Below, piece after piece: positions 3,001 to 63,000 of a stretch of 64,000 nt of DNA (position 1 is its first letter; the number at the start of each line of letters is the position of its first letter). The position numbers are program-made. The stretch comes from Octopus vulgaris (taxonomy: Eukaryota): positions 102,610,001-102,674,000 of the forward strand of contig OX597815.1 in the NCBI GenBank assembly GCA_951406725.2, given 5' to 3'.

Positions 3001-6000
3001 GTATGTATATACGTATGTATGTATATGTGTGTGTGAGTGAGAGAGAGAGGGGAAAAGGAATTGACAGTTTTGTAAGGTGAATTCTACAGTTAAAGATATG
3101 ATTCTTTTCTTTACGTATTTTTGCTTTATATATGTGTACACACACACACACACACACACACACACACAAACATAAAAGAATTGGTTAAATTGAATGTCCA
3201 TTGCAAAATGTTTGGAAAAATATGTGAATGATGTATATAATCAAAATTTCGTGATTAAATACTATATCTGTTTCTACTGCTTATGTACAAAGGTTATCAG
3301 TCACACAAAATATTACATAAGCTGTAGGTATTTAATTAATTTGAATGAACTAATTAAAGCATTTTATCAGAAACTAAAACTGAAATATCAAAATATTTAA
3401 TCCTTTTGGGGTTGAGAAAATAAGTTCCAGTTGATTACTGGTGTCGGTATAATCGACTTACTCTTCCTCCAAAATTTTTAGCCTTGTACCAAAATTTGGA
3501 AGCAATATTTCTGACAGAAGCATAAAGCTTCAAATACTATCGGTTATTACGCCTCCAATACTTGGTTGATATTTTACACTATTTATCCTAAGAAGCCAAT
3601 GCTAATTCAACGGATTTGAAATCATAATAGTCCTGACCGTATTGAACAACATATGAAGCTGCATCGTGAAAGTTGACTGACGGAGGGCAATAAATATTTC
3701 TGAAATACAAGGCCAGAATCTGGAGGGAGGATGTTAGTCGATACACTCAATTGTTATACTGAACGCGTATTTGAATAGCAGGCCTCGGCAAAACTGGAAC
3801 TCAAAAATATAAAGAACAATGACTAAATTCCACATTGTATTTTGTTGAATACTCTAACGATTCTACCAATCCACTTTTTAAATAGCAAATGCTTCTAGTT
3901 TTGACATAAGGTGAGTAATTTTGAGGGGCGTGGTTATTTGATTACATCGGCACCAGTATAATTATAAAATAAAGTGGTAGTTTATTTTATCGTTCCTGAA
4001 TAGATGAAAGTCAGAGATAACGTCTGTAAAATTAGGAGCATTTTGTACGACGCTCTAACAATTTCGAAAATTCATCTCCATTCTAGCAATGATAATAATA
4101 TCACTGCCAACATCTAATATTCCTATCTATCACCTAAAATTTCTCAGCGATATGAGAAATGTTGAAAGTAACCTCACCTGTCACCCACCAACAAATGTTT
4201 CATTATCGTGTTACTATCACAAGCAGCTGCAAGCATTAAACTACGAAAGGGACATTTTATTAAGCAATAAATAATTAAGGTAATTTGGATACCATTAGCT
4301 TGAAGTTTGCACCGTTATTAAGGCATTCGTTAATTGTGCGAATATATCAACGTTTAATGATTACCAAATAAACAGTTCTCTTGTGTCTTGTCAAACCTGG
4401 ATAAGTACCTCGTGTTAGTGGATATATTTAATATACTCTATGTGATATCTGTCAATTGTGATGTCCTCTAATTTCTGCTCATCTGCTTCGATACCTACTT
4501 TTCTCCCTTTAGATGATATTTTCTAATGTGGTTTCATATTGCATCATTTAGTCTATTTCTGTTATACCTTTAACTGCTACAACAACCGAACGCCGACGAC
4601 TACGTCAGAGAGAGAGAGAGAGAGAGAGAGAGAGGGGGAGAATCAAGAGAATGTGTGTGTGTGAGAGAAAGAGAGGGAGAGAAAAGGTGATTGCATAAAA
4701 GAGCCAAAGAAAGAATGAGATAAAGTGAAGTGAAAGAGTGACAGAGAGGTGTATAAGGGAGGCAAGAAGAATTGAAATCACCAAACTAAAGGGGAGACAG
4801 TGGAGAGATATAAATATGTAAAATGGAAATGGAAATGAAAGTTGCTACTTCTAATATATTTGTGACGACAAGTATGAACTAGATCTTCAGTAGACTGTTT
4901 TCCTATGACACACACAAGTTTGTTTCCGACCTAGAGAAGAAATCTCTAAGTGGTCACCCACCCTGGAATAAATAGTTGAAAATTATTTCTCGAATCACAC
5001 TTCAATGTCTTTATATATATATATATTAATATTTATCGCCGTACTAATATGGCAATCTTATAAATATAAGACTAAAGCTGTCGATGATTAGCTCCAAGAG
5101 GCCACCGCCTCAAGCTAGCTATTTGACACACAATCTGCGTCCATTATAGACTTTCGAACAGGGGAGGTCAGCCGCTTCATCCTGCTAGTCAGACAGCTGC
5201 AGACGCGTTTCAGGGTAGTTGCCATTTATCAATGCAGCGTAGTCAGACCCAGCAGGTGTCGCTACTGACTGTCCCTGTTCGAAGAATCTATTTACCTAGT
5301 TTCGGTGGAATACATCCACTTGTTTTCAATAATAGAAATATTAAAATTACTAAGTCTCTCTAAAAGAGATTACGGCAGCGTTACTGGAAATTAATAGGCG
5401 GTGGCCTCTTGGAGCTAATCATCGACAGCTTTAGTCTTATAGCTATAAGATTGCCATATTAGTATGGCGATAGCTATTAATTTCCAGTAACGCTGCCGTA
5501 ATCTCTTTTAGAGAGACTTAGTAATTTTAATATTTCTATTATTGAAAACAAGTGGATGTATTCCACCGAAACTAGGTAAATAGATTCTTCGAACAGGGAC
5601 AGTCAGTAGCGACACCTGCTGGGTCTGACTACGCTGCATTGATAAATGGCAACTACCCTGAAACGCGTCTGCAGCTGTCTGACTAGCAGGATGAAGCGGC
5701 TGACCTCCCCTGTTCGAAAGTCTATAATGGACGCAGATTGTGTGTCAAATAGCTAGCTTGAGGCGGTGGCCTCTTGGAGCTAATCATCGACAGCTTTAGT
5801 CTTATATTTATTGCCATATTAGTATGGCGATAACTATTAATTTCCAGTAACGCTGCCGTAATCTCTTTTAGAGAGACTTAGTAATTTTAATATTTCTATT
5901 ATATATATATATATATATTATATAATGGGCTTAGTAAAATAAATTACTTTGCCACATACTGAACTTAGTAGAAATAGCAGCCAAAAAAATTTTTCTTAGC

Positions 6001-60000: not shown

Positions 60001-63000
60001 TACATTAGTATCACGCATAATACTGCACCTATTTTGAAATAAAGATTCTTAATTCGATCTCTGTCAGAAAATATGTAGGTAACAAGAAATAATTCACCGG
60101 CAGATGATCAGAGATTGAAGCGATCGAAATTAGTGTTCATAAAATTATTGCAAATGTGCGGGTAACACTCCAACGACTTGTATTAATATGTTAGACGTTG
60201 AAACATTTGTTTTCATTCATTAACTCCATCACCACTTTCCTTTAATACGACAGTATGCACTTGCCTATGTTTTACCTATGTACATTTACGCCAAGCTAAT
60301 CTCGTGTACATTTTTTGACAGGATCTTTGCAACTCTAGTAATTACCAGTATTTGTGCGAATATGGCATAATCTATTCAATGTTAATATGCCAAAGATATA
60401 CACATTAGCTTCACATTCGTAGACAATCGGCAATATTCATTGTACGTGCGTGTATATATGTGCGTAAGAGTATTAAATGTGTGTGCGTGTATGTAAACTT
60501 AAAACGGAATGCATGTTTGTATGTATGTATGTATGTATGTATGTATGTATGTATGTATGTATATATCTATCTATCTGTATATACAGACATATACATATAT
60601 ATTTAAAATAAAATATTTAATATATGTATATCTAATATATATATATATATATATATATTGGTAAAAACGGTAAGATAACAAAAGAAAGAAAGAGACCTCA
60701 ATATTATGTAAATAGAGGGAATTTATCTATAAAATGATATGTTACAATTACTCAATAGTCAAGATAAAACTCTGAGTTTCAGATGCCGAAGTGGAAATCC
60801 ACAACAACATCTCTTCGGTTATCAGGCCATCTGAAAAACGCTATGAAAAAATACCGTTATATAAAGGGAAATTACTGTGTTATAATTCTGCTACTTATAT
60901 ATAAGAAGATTAAAAGTTCATAGTAATCACGTAAACATGGCTAGTCATACACTCACATGTGCGCTCGTGGACCACGTGCGTACTTATACGTCACTATGAA
61001 AACGTACACATCCTCACTCGCATTTTCGCCAAATATATAGGCATATATATACAAACTCATACACACACACGCGTACCGTAAAAGTTCATACATACGTCTA
61101 TATATGCACAAGCACAAGAAAAACCATAGTTAAAGGTAACAGAGAAAACATAAGGAAGTATGCAAAGCATAAAAACCACGTTCATATACGGACATGCCCT
61201 TATGCACTCATACATACACACGCCCATATATGTACATACCCGCACATGTTTATATACGCATACATACACACGCATATACAAAAAATGAATATACATATGC
61301 CCCCCCTCAAAAAACCCCCTAAAAATGGAAAAATACTAAGTAAAAACGTCTATATATATATATATACATTCTTATGCCCGCACACACACACACATCTAAA
61401 ACTGCCCACTCATACATATTGCCACACGTGTACAAATGAAACTATATACACGTCTATATAGGCACAGGAAAAAATGCAGGATAAAAGAGTAGAGAAAAAA
61501 TTATTATGTGTGAAAGTATAAAAATATATGAAATAATAAAAGGTATAATGAGATAAAAAACTTTTTGGGACATAATATAGAAAGCAAGTTCTATCTGTTT
61601 TCTTTAGGGGACCAAAAACGTAACAAAAATCTTGTCACATATGGGCATGATCCGAAAAGTTCTGTCCTTGAGTTTAGACATGTAGTAGGGTCTAAGCTGC
61701 TTTTCCAGATAAGCCATATCTCCATGTCGCAGTAATTTCCCTTTATATAACGGTATTTTTTCGTAGCGTTTTTCAGAAGAGATGGTGTCGTGGATTTCCA
61801 CTTCGGCATCTGAAACTCAGAGTTTTATCTTGACTATTGAGTAATTGTAACATATTATTTCATATATATATATATATATATATAATATGTACACATAAAT
61901 ATATATATATATATATATATATATATATATATAATATGTACACATTAAATATATTAAATATATTAGTCAAATATATTAAAGTGTGTGTTAATTAAATCTA
62001 CTGAATTTATGTTGAGTGCTCTATTGTATCAAAGTATTAATACTATTAAAGTATTTATATATTTAATGCGAGCGATTATATATATGTTTTATAAAATGTT
62101 ATTATTATTAATATCAGGAAATCAATATTAGAAAATTCTTCAGAAAGATATATACGTGTGTAAAATAATTGTTGTATTAAAAATATAAATAAATATATAT
62201 AAGTATATATATATAATGTATATGACTGTTTAAAAGTTTTGAACTAAGTATTTAAAGCATTTTACGATCGTTTCCCAGACGTGCTGCCCCTATAATGAAA
62301 TCCTATATTGATTAGCATTTATAGACAACTCTTCTACTCTTCACAGATATAAAATTTGAATTTTGTATAATATCGAATGGTAGTCTTTTGAAAAATTTGA
62401 AGTAATACTATAAAATGGTGTTTGTTTGAAATATAAACTAAAAATTAAAAATTACTGTTTTTGCTGAGAGTCTTTAAATCCATATATACTTGATTTGTTA
62501 GTCTTCTGTAATACTCCATAATATTCATATGTAAAATCCGTTATATTGTCTGGCATTCCAAATATTGTTCATATACTTAGATAAAATAGAATAATGGAAT
62601 CCTGTATTGATAATCTATAATATAAATTGGACATAGGTGATCGTTGTATTCTTTCTTGTCTTCAGGTTTACAGCCAAATGGCTGGGTGGATTCGCCTGAA
62701 AAATGGCACACATGTGAAAACGGGTGTATACATTAAAATGCTGTTTCTACTTTTTCCTAGGACCCATACTTACCAAGAAAATCGATTAGAACTTTTTCTA
62801 ATGGAAGTTCCCTCTTTCTTCCGCCATTAAAACAACCAGTTGCTTAGGAGCTGTTTTCTGATGGGGTGGGGATCAGGGAATGTTCATACTGCTGGAGGCT
62901 CCAATCGAAACAGGAGACCCGAAATGATAAGGTTGAGAAACGCTGTTATAGATTATGCCTAACCGAAAACGATCACATCCACATCACCCAAACAGACCGG

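What the first reader, a model, noticed from the sequence alone, without database searches (positions are those of the whole stretch)
5025..61862. Recurrent head-to-head geometry: minus copy then plus copy, both 3' ends in (TA)n
Four separate elements (5025-5902, 5917-7007, 14262-14490, 60658-61862) share one polarity: ribozyme-sense strands diverge from an internal junction and both 3' ends finish in TA repeats. Inference: because (TA)n is self-complementary, both ends of a break could prime reverse transcription (twin priming), and the two cDNAs then join at their 5' ends by microhomology. Inverted partial copies are known for PLEs, but this consistent polarity suggests a specific mechanism. 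Read-through transcription would give long dsRNA, a potential ADAR or siRNA substrate.
Basis: inference. Interest (0 to 1): 0.7.

Follow-up and report, generated by a model that had tools for sequence, protein, structure and literature searches.

The report
Head-to-head retroelement pairs in TA repeats
Short non-coding retroelements sit in TA microsatellites as back-to-back inverted copies, an arrangement already described for Penelope-like retrotransposons, so this is a tidy example of a known pattern, not a new one.

Summary
The geometry is real for three of the four elements. E1 (5025-5902) and E2 (5917-7007) are young inverted pairs. Their arms differ by 2 substitutions each and meet at a 2-nt and a 4-nt microhomology. 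E3 (14262-14490) is an old, decayed hairpin. E4 is two inverted copies 852 bp apart, with no junction.

Seven of eight outer ends abut a pure (TA)n tract (chance about 4e-11). The eighth abuts a TA/TATG repeat.

The ribozyme polarity holds only for E2, which has a complete type I hammerhead in both arms, pointing outward. E3 keeps only a 3' half. E1 and E4 have none. Rfam reports no hammerhead anywhere.

The anatomy matches published Penelope-like element (PLE) insertions: tandem units, an adjacent inverted copy, an extension at one end only, and AT-rich or (TA)n targets. Head-to-head is already reported as the commonest PLE arrangement. A PLE protein cleaves and extends both target strands in vitro.

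Priming from both cut strands is therefore the best-supported mechanism. E2 supports it because each arm holds sequence the other lacks, which a simple fold-back copy cannot give.

No PLE gene lies in the window and no eukaryotic DNA collection was available. Family membership and genome-wide orientation counts remain untested.

The parts
5012..5026 (.). (TA)n tract at the left outer end of E1; overlaps the element end by 2 nt
5025..5397 (-). E1 left arm: 373 nt, one 365-nt unit plus 8 nt; its 3' end (in the inferred sense) lies at 5025 in the TA tract
5396..5397 (.). E1 head-to-head junction; 2 nt (AG) shared by both arms
5398..5902 (+). E1 right arm: about 1.4 tandem units (5396-5542 is repeated at 5761-5902); it ends 56 nt further along the unit than the left arm
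5900..5918 (.). (TA)n tract shared by the right end of E1 and the left end of E2
5917..6436 (-). E2 left arm. It includes 52 nt (6385-6436) of the preceding unit's end, which is the reverse complement of 6956-7007. It ends 87 nt short of the right arm's 3' end
6104..6166 (-). Type I hammerhead motif in the E2 left arm
6433..6436 (.). E2 junction; 4 nt (TGTT) shared by both arms
   Evidence: read from the sequence
6437..7007 (+). E2 right arm. Counted from 6433 it is one 566-nt unit plus 9 nt
6661..6723 (+). Type I hammerhead motif in the E2 right arm: helix I 6 bp, core CUGACGA, helix II 4 bp, GAAA, a short helix III, cleavage expected after GUA
7004..7024 (.). (TA)n tract at the right outer end of E2; overlaps the element end by 4 nt
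14242..14260 (.). (TA)n tract at the left outer end of E3
14262..14413 (-). E3 left arm with a longer 3' extension; carries the GAAAC-N6-GUC relic on the minus strand
14414..14490 (+). E3 right arm, short; ends in a TA/TATG compound repeat
60635..60658 (.). (TA)n tract at the left outer end of E4
60659..60877 (-). E4 left copy; extends about 62 nt further outward than the right copy
60878..61729 (.). 852-bp spacer of decayed CA/TA-type low-complexity DNA between the E4 copies
61730..61864 (+). E4 right copy; starts at the same element position as the left copy and carries a 15-nt deletion
61862..61884 (.). (TA)n tract at the right outer end of E4

Best explanation
E1, E2 and probably E3 are insertions of short, non-coding, highly structured retroelements. 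They are of the type mobilised by Penelope-like elements (PLEs). E2 is hammerhead-bearing and retrozyme-like. They inserted into (TA)n microsatellites.

Proposed mechanism. The element's endonuclease cuts both strands of the TA tract. Each freed 3' end primes reverse transcription on a multimeric (tandem or circular) element RNA, at an internal UA-rich site that can pair with 2-4 nt of the TA end. The two cDNAs grow towards each other, and their 3' ends join through 2-4 nt of microhomology. The product is a minus copy followed by a plus copy, with both RNA-sense 3' ends outward in (TA)n. One arm reaches further 3' than the other (the PLE 'tail').

What is shown: the anatomy, the TA association, the microhomologies, the tandem content of the arms, and the hammerhead in E2. 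What is inferred: the enzyme, the order of events, and the polarity of E1 and E4. E4 fits only loosely.
For: Outer ends: 7 of 8 abut (TA)>=5 tracts, which cover 2.07% of the window.

Template: the E1 right arm holds 1.4 tandem units, and the E2 left arm crosses a unit boundary. The template therefore had more than one unit.

Tail: the two arms end at different unit positions, 56 nt apart in E1, 87 nt in E2 and about 62 nt in E4. This is the one-sided tail described for PLEs (PMC8557442 passages). That tail has been traced to two alternative internal RT start sites (PMC11167929 main text).

3' ends: 5 of 5 ends that could be evaluated share 2-4 nt with the TA tract (Fisher p=0.0038).

Junctions: 2 nt of microhomology in E1 and 4 nt in E2. 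Chance of >=2 nt is 0.075 and of >=4 nt is 0.0056.

Non-nested arms: the E2 left arm has 52 nt of upstream unit that the right arm lacks, and the right arm has 87 nt of 3' sequence that the left arm lacks. This calls for two separately templated cDNAs.

E1 differences: the 3 differences between the arms (one 5-nt indel, 2 substitutions) all lie in the outer 37 of 373 nt. That is also the stretch in which the two tandem units of the right arm differ. It suggests copies of different units, not a copy of the other arm.

Hammerhead: present in both E2 arms and diverging. The strict descriptor hit 0 of 100 simulated windows.

RNA structure: both unit RNAs fold far better than shuffles (z -7.1 and -5.8).

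Literature: head-to-head is the most frequent PLE inverted form and PLEs favour AT-rich targets (PMC3846280). (TA)n is a preferred target of Naiad PLEs, which lack canonical hammerheads (PMC8557442). The PAc PLE protein cleaves and extends both strands in vitro (PMC11167929).
Against: No PLE protein was found in the window. Of the 91 stop-to-stop ORFs of at least 90 aa, 76 were scanned. None matched a GIY-YIG domain, and the only RT hits sit with LINE-type domains.

No second copy of any of the four families lies in the window. No eukaryotic DNA or repeat library was available. Family assignment therefore rests on architecture alone.

Polarity is proven only for E2. The Rfam hammerhead models do not score even E2.

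The published in vitro initiation site is not homologous to the cut DNA, unlike the TA microhomology seen here.

The E3 arms meet at a 4-nt loop. E1's left arm lies wholly within the range of its right arm. Both are what a fold-back copy would give.

E4 has no junction, and its two copies start at the same element position, as terminal inverted repeats of a DNA element would.

The tails here (56-87 nt) are longer than the published 30-40 bp.
Confidence: 0.5

Rival explanations
1. One priming event plus fold-back. A single cDNA is made from one cut strand. Its 3' end snaps back on itself at a 2-4 nt match and copies itself, making the inverted arm. That arm is then joined to the other TA end by microhomology. 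This is a self-priming model of the kind proposed for PLE palindromic junctions.
For: The E3 arms meet at a 4-nt loop. E1 has 338 nt of perfect complementarity, a 76-nt spacer and a 2-nt match at the fold-back point, and its left arm is a sub-range of the right arm. E2 has a 4-nt match (6433-6436 against 6390-6393) that could close a 39-nt loop, read. PMC3846280 interprets palindromes at PLE inverted junctions as self-priming (passage seen).
Against: The E2 arms are not nested. The left arm carries 52 nt of upstream unit and the right arm 87 nt of extra 3' sequence, so neither can be a copy of the other. In E1 the three arm differences cluster in the outer 37 of 373 nt. A one-sided tail is explained in print by two RT start sites.
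Confidence: 0.22
2. DNA-level events, not retrotransposition. Either a fold-back inversion or palindrome formed at breaks in fragile (TA)n or inside an existing tandem array, or these are foldback/MITE-type DNA transposons with long terminal inverted repeats. This is most plausible for E4.
For: The window holds a palindrome of the opposite layout at 59472-59717. It has (TA)n at its centre, and the flanking (TCTA)n is mirrored too. It also holds inverted-repeat elements whose outer ends are not in (TA)n: 11017-12017, and the mariner-like 63190-63640. The E4 copies start at the same element position and enclose 852 bp.
Against: In E1 and E2 the inverted duplication stops in the TA tracts and does not include flanking unique DNA. 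The outer ends differ by 56 and 87 nt, unlike terminal inverted repeats. The arms contain tandem unit junctions and a hammerhead, which are marks of RNA-derived copies.
Confidence: 0.12
3. Assembly artefact: chimeric or fold-back reads created false palindromes next to low-complexity TA DNA.
For: 338 nt and 215 nt of the arms are 100% identical, next to microsatellites that are hard to assemble. PMC8557442 notes that such PLE structures cause assembly problems.
Against: The arms are asymmetric, with different ends, different unit content, substitutions and indels. Four cases of very different age occur in one window. E3 and E4 are diverged.
Confidence: 0.04

Closest known systems
Penelope-like element (PLE) insertion architecture: pseudo-LTRs, an adjacent inverted 5'-truncated copy, and a one-sided tail
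   Same: Partial tandem units, a head-to-head inverted copy, microhomology or a short palindrome at the junction, an extension at one end only, and an AT-rich or (TA)n target. E2 also has a type I hammerhead in the repeated part. Compared with PMC8557442, PMC3846280 and PMC11167929.
   Different: There is no RT or GIY-YIG ORF between or near the repeats. The tails are 56-87 nt against the published 30-40 bp. The 3' ends show TA microhomology, whereas in vitro initiation was at a non-homologous site. 3 of the 4 elements lack a complete hammerhead.
Metazoan non-LTR retrozymes (tandem units with type I hammerheads; circular RNA intermediates; thought to be mobilised by PLEs)
   Same: E2 is a non-coding, strongly structured unit with a type I hammerhead that has a real helix III, present in more than one unit length. 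PLEs are proposed as the mobilising partner (PMC7761336 and bioRxiv 10.64898/2026.07.22.740005, passages seen).
   Different: The E2 unit is 566 nt, against about 150-300 bp quoted for animals. There are no two consecutive direct units each with a hammerhead. The copies are inverted, not a direct array. E1 has no hammerhead. Circular RNA cannot be tested here.
L1 twin priming
   Same: Both cut strands prime cDNA synthesis. The product has an inverted 5' part and a direct 3' part, joined at microhomology.
   Different: In L1 the two parts are adjacent, non-overlapping stretches of one RNA. Here the arms duplicate the same sequence, so two RNAs or a multimeric RNA are needed. The primer is (TA)n, not a T-rich end pairing with poly(A).

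Membership tests
Penelope-like element (autonomous) | Single ORF with a telomerase-like RT and a GIY-YIG endonuclease | tested here: not met
   76 of the 91 stop-to-stop ORFs of at least 90 aa were scanned against Pfam. None matched GIY-YIG, and RVT_1 hits came with zf-RVT and Exo_endo_phos (LINE type). None lies inside E1-E4. Shorter ORFs were not scanned.
PLE-type insertion (autonomous or not) | Partial tandem (pseudo-LTR) organisation | tested here: met
   The E1 right arm holds 1.4 units. The E2 left arm spans a unit boundary. This could not be assessed in E3 or E4.
PLE-type insertion (autonomous or not) | Adjacent inverted copy joined head-to-head, often with a palindrome or microhomology at the junction | tested here: met
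   Met in E1, E2 and E3. Not met in E4, which has an 852-bp spacer. Head-to-head polarity is proven only in E2.
PLE-type insertion (autonomous or not) | Tail: an extension present at one end only | tested here: met
   One arm runs 56 nt (E1), 87 nt (E2) or about 62 nt (E4) further 3' than the other. This is longer than the published 30-40 bp.
PLE-type insertion (autonomous or not) | Hammerhead ribozyme motif in the repeated part (canonical clades; Naiads lack it) | tested here: inconclusive
   Complete motif in E2 only. A 3' half in E3, read by eye. None in E1 or E4. No Rfam hit.
PLE-type insertion (autonomous or not) | AT-rich or (TA)n target | tested here: met
   7 of 8 outer ends abut a (TA)>=5 tract.
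PLE-type insertion (autonomous or not) | 3' sequence shared with an autonomous PLE of the same genome | not testable with these tools
   No eukaryotic genome or repeat library was available. The only open DNA collection holds bacteria and archaea.
Metazoan non-LTR retrozyme | At least two consecutive direct units, each with a complete type I hammerhead | tested here: not met
   E2 has one hammerhead per arm, and the arms are inverted. The criterion is as stated in bioRxiv 10.64898/2026.07.22.740005.
Metazoan non-LTR retrozyme | Self-cleaved, circularised RNA | not testable with these tools
   No transcript data. There are only indirect hints: structured units and arms of one unit plus 8-9 nt.
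L1-type twin priming product | Inverted and direct parts are adjacent, non-overlapping stretches of one RNA | tested here: not met
   The arms duplicate the same sequence.
Foldback/MITE DNA transposon | Terminal inverted repeats identical up to the outer ends, plus target-site duplication | tested here: not met
   The outer ends differ by 56, 87 and about 62 nt. Target-site duplication cannot be read inside (TA)n.

The most novel reading that the evidence does not exclude
The (TA)n ends of both cut strands act as identical base-pairing primers on internal UA-rich sites of a circular or multimeric structured RNA. In each young element, one arm is exactly one unit plus an 8-9 nt terminal redundancy (E1 left arm 373 nt against a 365-nt unit; E2 right arm 575 nt against a 566-nt unit). 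That arm would be a once-around copy of an RNA circle that stopped at its own primer. Head-to-head palindromes would then be the default product when PLE machinery copies retrozyme-like circles at self-complementary microsatellites. This applies also to elements without a hammerhead, such as E1.
Probability: 0.12. Interest if true: 0.6.

Novelty: new member of a known kind. Interest (0 to 1): 0.3.

Why it matters
How PLEs build their tandem and inverted insertions, and why they favour microsatellites, was named an open question in 2021 (PMC8557442, passage seen). A 2024 in vitro study showed cleavage and extension of both strands, but in the main text I read it does not link this to inverted copies.

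The two young pairs here give a small, concrete test case. Non-nested arms (E2) argue for two independently primed cDNAs. TA microhomology at all 3' ends that could be evaluated suggests annealing-assisted initiation at microsatellite targets. A genome-wide census of these families could settle both points cheaply.

The long perfect hairpins (about 340-480 bp of duplex) would also form dsRNA whenever they are transcribed through.

Tried and rejected
- Rfam over the whole window at gathering scores gave 0 matches. At E<=10 over 4900-7200, 14230-14530 and 60600-61950 it gave only microRNA-type hits caused by the hairpins, and no ribozyme family.
- My own hammerhead descriptor with up to 2 core mismatches found 0 hits on both strands of E1, E3 and E4. 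Two further loose matches in the window failed the full descriptor or needed a core mismatch: 43524-43550 and 62854-62938.
- An ORF-like reading that runs inward from the outer ends of both E4 copies gave no Pfam family at E<=10. I treat it as chance.
- A sensitive self-BLAST for further copies of the four families in the window found none beyond low-complexity matches.
- I tested whether the E2 right arm continues beyond its TA tract, because 8 nt there repeat the unit start. The flank aligns to the unit no better than shuffles: score 25-26 against a shuffle mean of 22.4 and maximum of 32.
- The hammerhead fold energy alone is not significant (z -0.57). The motif rests on the descriptor and its rarity.
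- Literature. 'Penelope' plus 'twin priming' returned 3 papers, none on PLE mechanism judging by title and abstract start (listing only). 'Penelope' plus 'head-to-head' plus two further terms returned 1 unrelated review. I therefore found no explicit twin-priming model for PLEs in the searchable library. Subscription papers, for example the early Penelope reviews cited, were not searchable.
- Not used: the protein-homology, structure and complex tools, because the elements are non-coding. Also the closed collections metagenome contigs and viral contigs, and the bacterial genome-contig collection, which is irrelevant to a eukaryotic repeat.
- No supplementary files of the papers read were opened, and bioRxiv supplements are closed. 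The figures S1-S2 cited in PMC11167929 and the supplementary files cited in PMC8557442 may bear on start-site homology and insertion structures.

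
Full report
**What is there**

The window is AT-rich eukaryotic DNA crowded with microsatellites. It holds 65 pure (TA)>=5 tracts, which cover 2.07% of it.

E1 and E2 sit side by side, separated only by a 19-nt TA tract.
- E1 (5025-5902) has a left arm at 5025-5397 that is the reverse complement of 5474-5841. 366 of 373 columns are identical, and 338 nt are perfectly complementary with 76 nt between the arms. Its right arm is 5398-5902.
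- E2 (5917-7007) has a left arm at 5917-6436 and a right arm from 6433/6437 to 7007.

Both pairs are young. Each has 2 substitutions between its arms plus a few small indels.

E3 (14262-14490) is a 110-nt hairpin centred at 14413/14414, with a 4-nt loop and a long extension on the left. Its self-complementary alignment is only 76% identical.

E4 is different. Two inverted copies (60720-60877 and 61730-61864) share 148 of 177 identical columns and one 15-nt indel. Both start at the same element position. They are separated by 852 bp of decayed CA/TA-type repeats, so there is no junction.

No further copy of any of the four families lies in the window.

**The TA ends**

Seven of the eight outer ends lie 0-1 nt from a pure (TA)>=5 tract. 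The right end of E3 abuts a TA/TATG compound repeat instead.

A random position lies within 3 nt of such a tract with probability 0.0245. That gives about 4e-11 for 7 or more of 8, and 3.6e-7 for the four ends of E1 and E2 alone. The four ends of E1 and E2 are convincing on their own. They are also the two outstanding palindromes among the 33 stretches of 60-3000 bp between neighbouring TA tracts.

**The ribozyme claim**

Rfam finds no hammerhead, either at gathering scores in the whole window or at E<=10 in the three regions. Those searches return only microRNA-like hits caused by the hairpins.

My own descriptor requires helix I, CUGANGA, helix II, GAAA, helix III and a cleavage-site nucleotide other than G. 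It finds one motif, present in both E2 arms: 6104-6166 on the minus strand and 6661-6723 on the plus strand.
- The loose form of the descriptor hit 0.04 times per simulated window.
- The strict form hit in 0 of 100 simulations.
- The fold recovers helices I and II, but its energy is unremarkable (z -0.57).

So in E2 the ribozyme-sense strands do diverge from the junction.

With up to 2 core mismatches allowed, nothing is found on either strand of E1, E3 or E4. E3 carries only a GAAAC-N6-GUC piece, followed by a helix I strand, in each arm and pointing outward (read by eye). Polarity is therefore shown for one element, suggested for a second, and unknown for two.

**Anatomy that bears on mechanism**

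1. The templates had more than one unit. The E1 right arm holds 1.4 tandem units of 365 nt (5396-5542 is repeated at 5761-5902). The E2 left arm runs through the start of its unit into 52 nt of the preceding unit's end; 6385-6436 is the reverse complement of 6956-7007.
2. The two arms end at different unit positions. The E1 right arm goes 56 nt further than the left. The E2 right arm goes 87 nt further. The E4 left copy goes about 62 nt further.
3. All 5 ends for which the template's next bases are known share 2-4 nt with the TA tract (2, 3, 2, 4 and 3 nt). The chance values from the units themselves run from 0.016 to 0.184, and the Fisher combination gives p = 0.0038.
4. The arms meet at microhomologies: AG at 5396-5397 in E1 and TGTT at 6433-6436 in E2. 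The chance of 2 or more shared nt is 0.075, and of 4 or more is 0.0056.
5. The E2 arms are not nested. Each holds element sequence that the other lacks.
6. The three E1 arm differences all lie in the outer 37 of 373 nt. The chance of that under even spread is about 0.001, by my arithmetic. This is the same TA-like stretch in which the two tandem units of the right arm differ.
7. One arm in each young element is one unit plus 8-9 nt: the E1 left arm is 373 nt against a 365-nt unit, and the E2 right arm is 575 nt against a 566-nt unit. I have no firm explanation for this.
8. Both unit RNAs fold far better than shuffles, with z of -7.1 and -5.8.

**Most likely mechanism**

Target-primed reverse transcription from a cut bottom strand puts the RNA-sense 3' end at the right flank on the plus strand. 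The same reaction from the cut top strand puts it at the left flank on the minus strand. Priming at both cuts therefore yields 'minus copy then plus copy, 3' ends out' and cannot yield the reverse. This follows from the chemistry of target-primed reverse transcription.

With two RNAs or a multimeric RNA, the two cDNAs overlap in content. They can pair at their 3' ends through a few bases, which also provides second-strand synthesis. Points 1-6 fit this model.

A rival is one cDNA that snaps back on itself. It fits E3 (4-nt loop) and is allowed by E1 (nested arms, 2-nt match, 76-nt spacer). It is contradicted by E2 (point 5) and strained by point 6.

DNA-level fold-back and foldback-type transposons exist in this window. 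Examples are the palindrome at 59472-59717, which has TA at its centre and mirrored flanking repeats, and the inverted-repeat elements at 11017-12017 and 63190-63640. But E1 and E2 stop in the TA tracts without duplicating flanks, and their outer ends are unequal. E4 is the case where a DNA-element reading remains open.

**Comparison with what is known**

- PMC8557442 (passages) describes PLE insertions as 5'-truncated and partially tandem. They often have an inverted 5'-truncated copy adjacent at the 5' end and a 30-40 bp tail at one end only. (TA)n is a preferred target of Naiads, which lack canonical hammerheads. The paper names the formation of tandem and inverted structures, and the microsatellite bias, as open questions.
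- PMC3846280 (passages) states that head-to-head is the most frequently observed inverted arrangement. It notes palindromes at the junction, proposes self-priming, and cites AT-rich targets.
- PMC11167929 (main text read) shows that a purified PLE protein cleaves and extends both strands. It also shows that reverse transcription starts internally at two sites whose spacing equals the tail, that cleavage prefers AT-rich DNA, and that the start site is not homologous to the cut DNA. I found no statement in its main text linking two-strand extension to inverted copies.
- PMC7761336 and bioRxiv 10.64898/2026.07.22.740005 (passages) propose that PLEs mobilise hammerhead-bearing non-LTR retrozymes, or that retrozymes derive from PLE ends.

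The elements here work like PLE-type insertions. Membership as autonomous PLEs fails, because there is no RT or GIY-YIG ORF. Membership as strict retrozymes fails, because there are no two consecutive direct units with hammerheads. Derivation from a resident PLE could not be tested.

**Verdict**

Dual priming is the best-supported mechanism. The polarity rule, however, is already in print, and the self-complementarity of (TA)n is not shown to be the cause.

This is a new set of members of a known kind. Its modest added value lies in the non-nested arms and in the TA microhomology at the 3' ends, which differs from the one in vitro system studied.

Read-through RNA would indeed be a long hairpin: -733 kcal/mol for E1 (z -67 against 20 shuffles) and -858 kcal/mol for E2. 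No expression, small-RNA or editing data could be consulted.

**Left unchecked**

- Genome-wide orientation counts.
- The resident PLE repertoire.
- Empty sites.
- Validation of the assembly.
- The supplementary files of the cited papers.
- The closed collections.

Noticed in passing
59472-59717: A palindrome with the opposite layout. (TA)n/(CA)n lies at its centre (59591-59605), the arms are about 59531-59570 and 59640-59678, and (TCTA)n on the left is mirrored by a (TAGA)n-like repeat on the right. The flanking microsatellite is therefore duplicated too, which suggests a DNA-level fold-back or a foldback element.
   Followed up: partly
63032-63766: A mariner-like remnant at about 63190-63640. 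It has a transposase C-terminal piece (read by eye), terminal inverted repeats, and TA on both sides. It is nested inside a larger inverted repeat (63032-63150 and 63648-63766) whose arms end inward in (CA)n and (TG)n.
   Followed up: no
11017-12017: An inverted repeat (11017-11166 against 11863-12017, 83% identical) enclosing a block of compound microsatellites. Its outer ends are not in (TA)n, so it is probably a DNA-transposon or MITE-type element.
   Followed up: no
2260-2790: Two direct copies of a roughly 145-nt sequence (2260-2401 and 2616-2758, 80% identical). Each ends at or near a (TA)n tract (2395-2413 and 2776-2790). This may be a direct-orientation counterpart of the TA-targeted insertions.
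   Followed up: no
31442-32037: Direct 80-nt repeats (31458-31537 and 31958-32037, 95% identical), 500 bp apart. The first starts at the (TA)n tract 31442-31461. They resemble pseudo-LTRs or small LTRs.
   Followed up: no
15506-15540: A short interstitial telomere-type repeat of unit CCTAAC (the CCCTAA/TTAGGG type), 5.8 copies.
   Followed up: no
19579-26378 and 46786-47988: LINE-type fragments. RVT_1 and zf-RVT matches are interleaved with long (AAT)n arrays (for example 19678-19841, 22500-22672 and 24800-24961). A weak Exo_endo_phos match lies at 46786-47988.
   Followed up: no
5025-5397 and 6433-7007: In each young element one arm equals one repeat unit plus an 8-9 nt terminal redundancy at a TA-like site. 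Both unit RNAs are strongly structured (z -7.1 and -5.8). This is unexplained; a circular or precisely bounded RNA template is one reading.
   Followed up: partly
7025-7032: Just after the right (TA)n tract of E2, 8 nt repeat the first bases of the E2 unit. The flank beyond aligns to the unit no better than shuffled sequence.
   Followed up: yes
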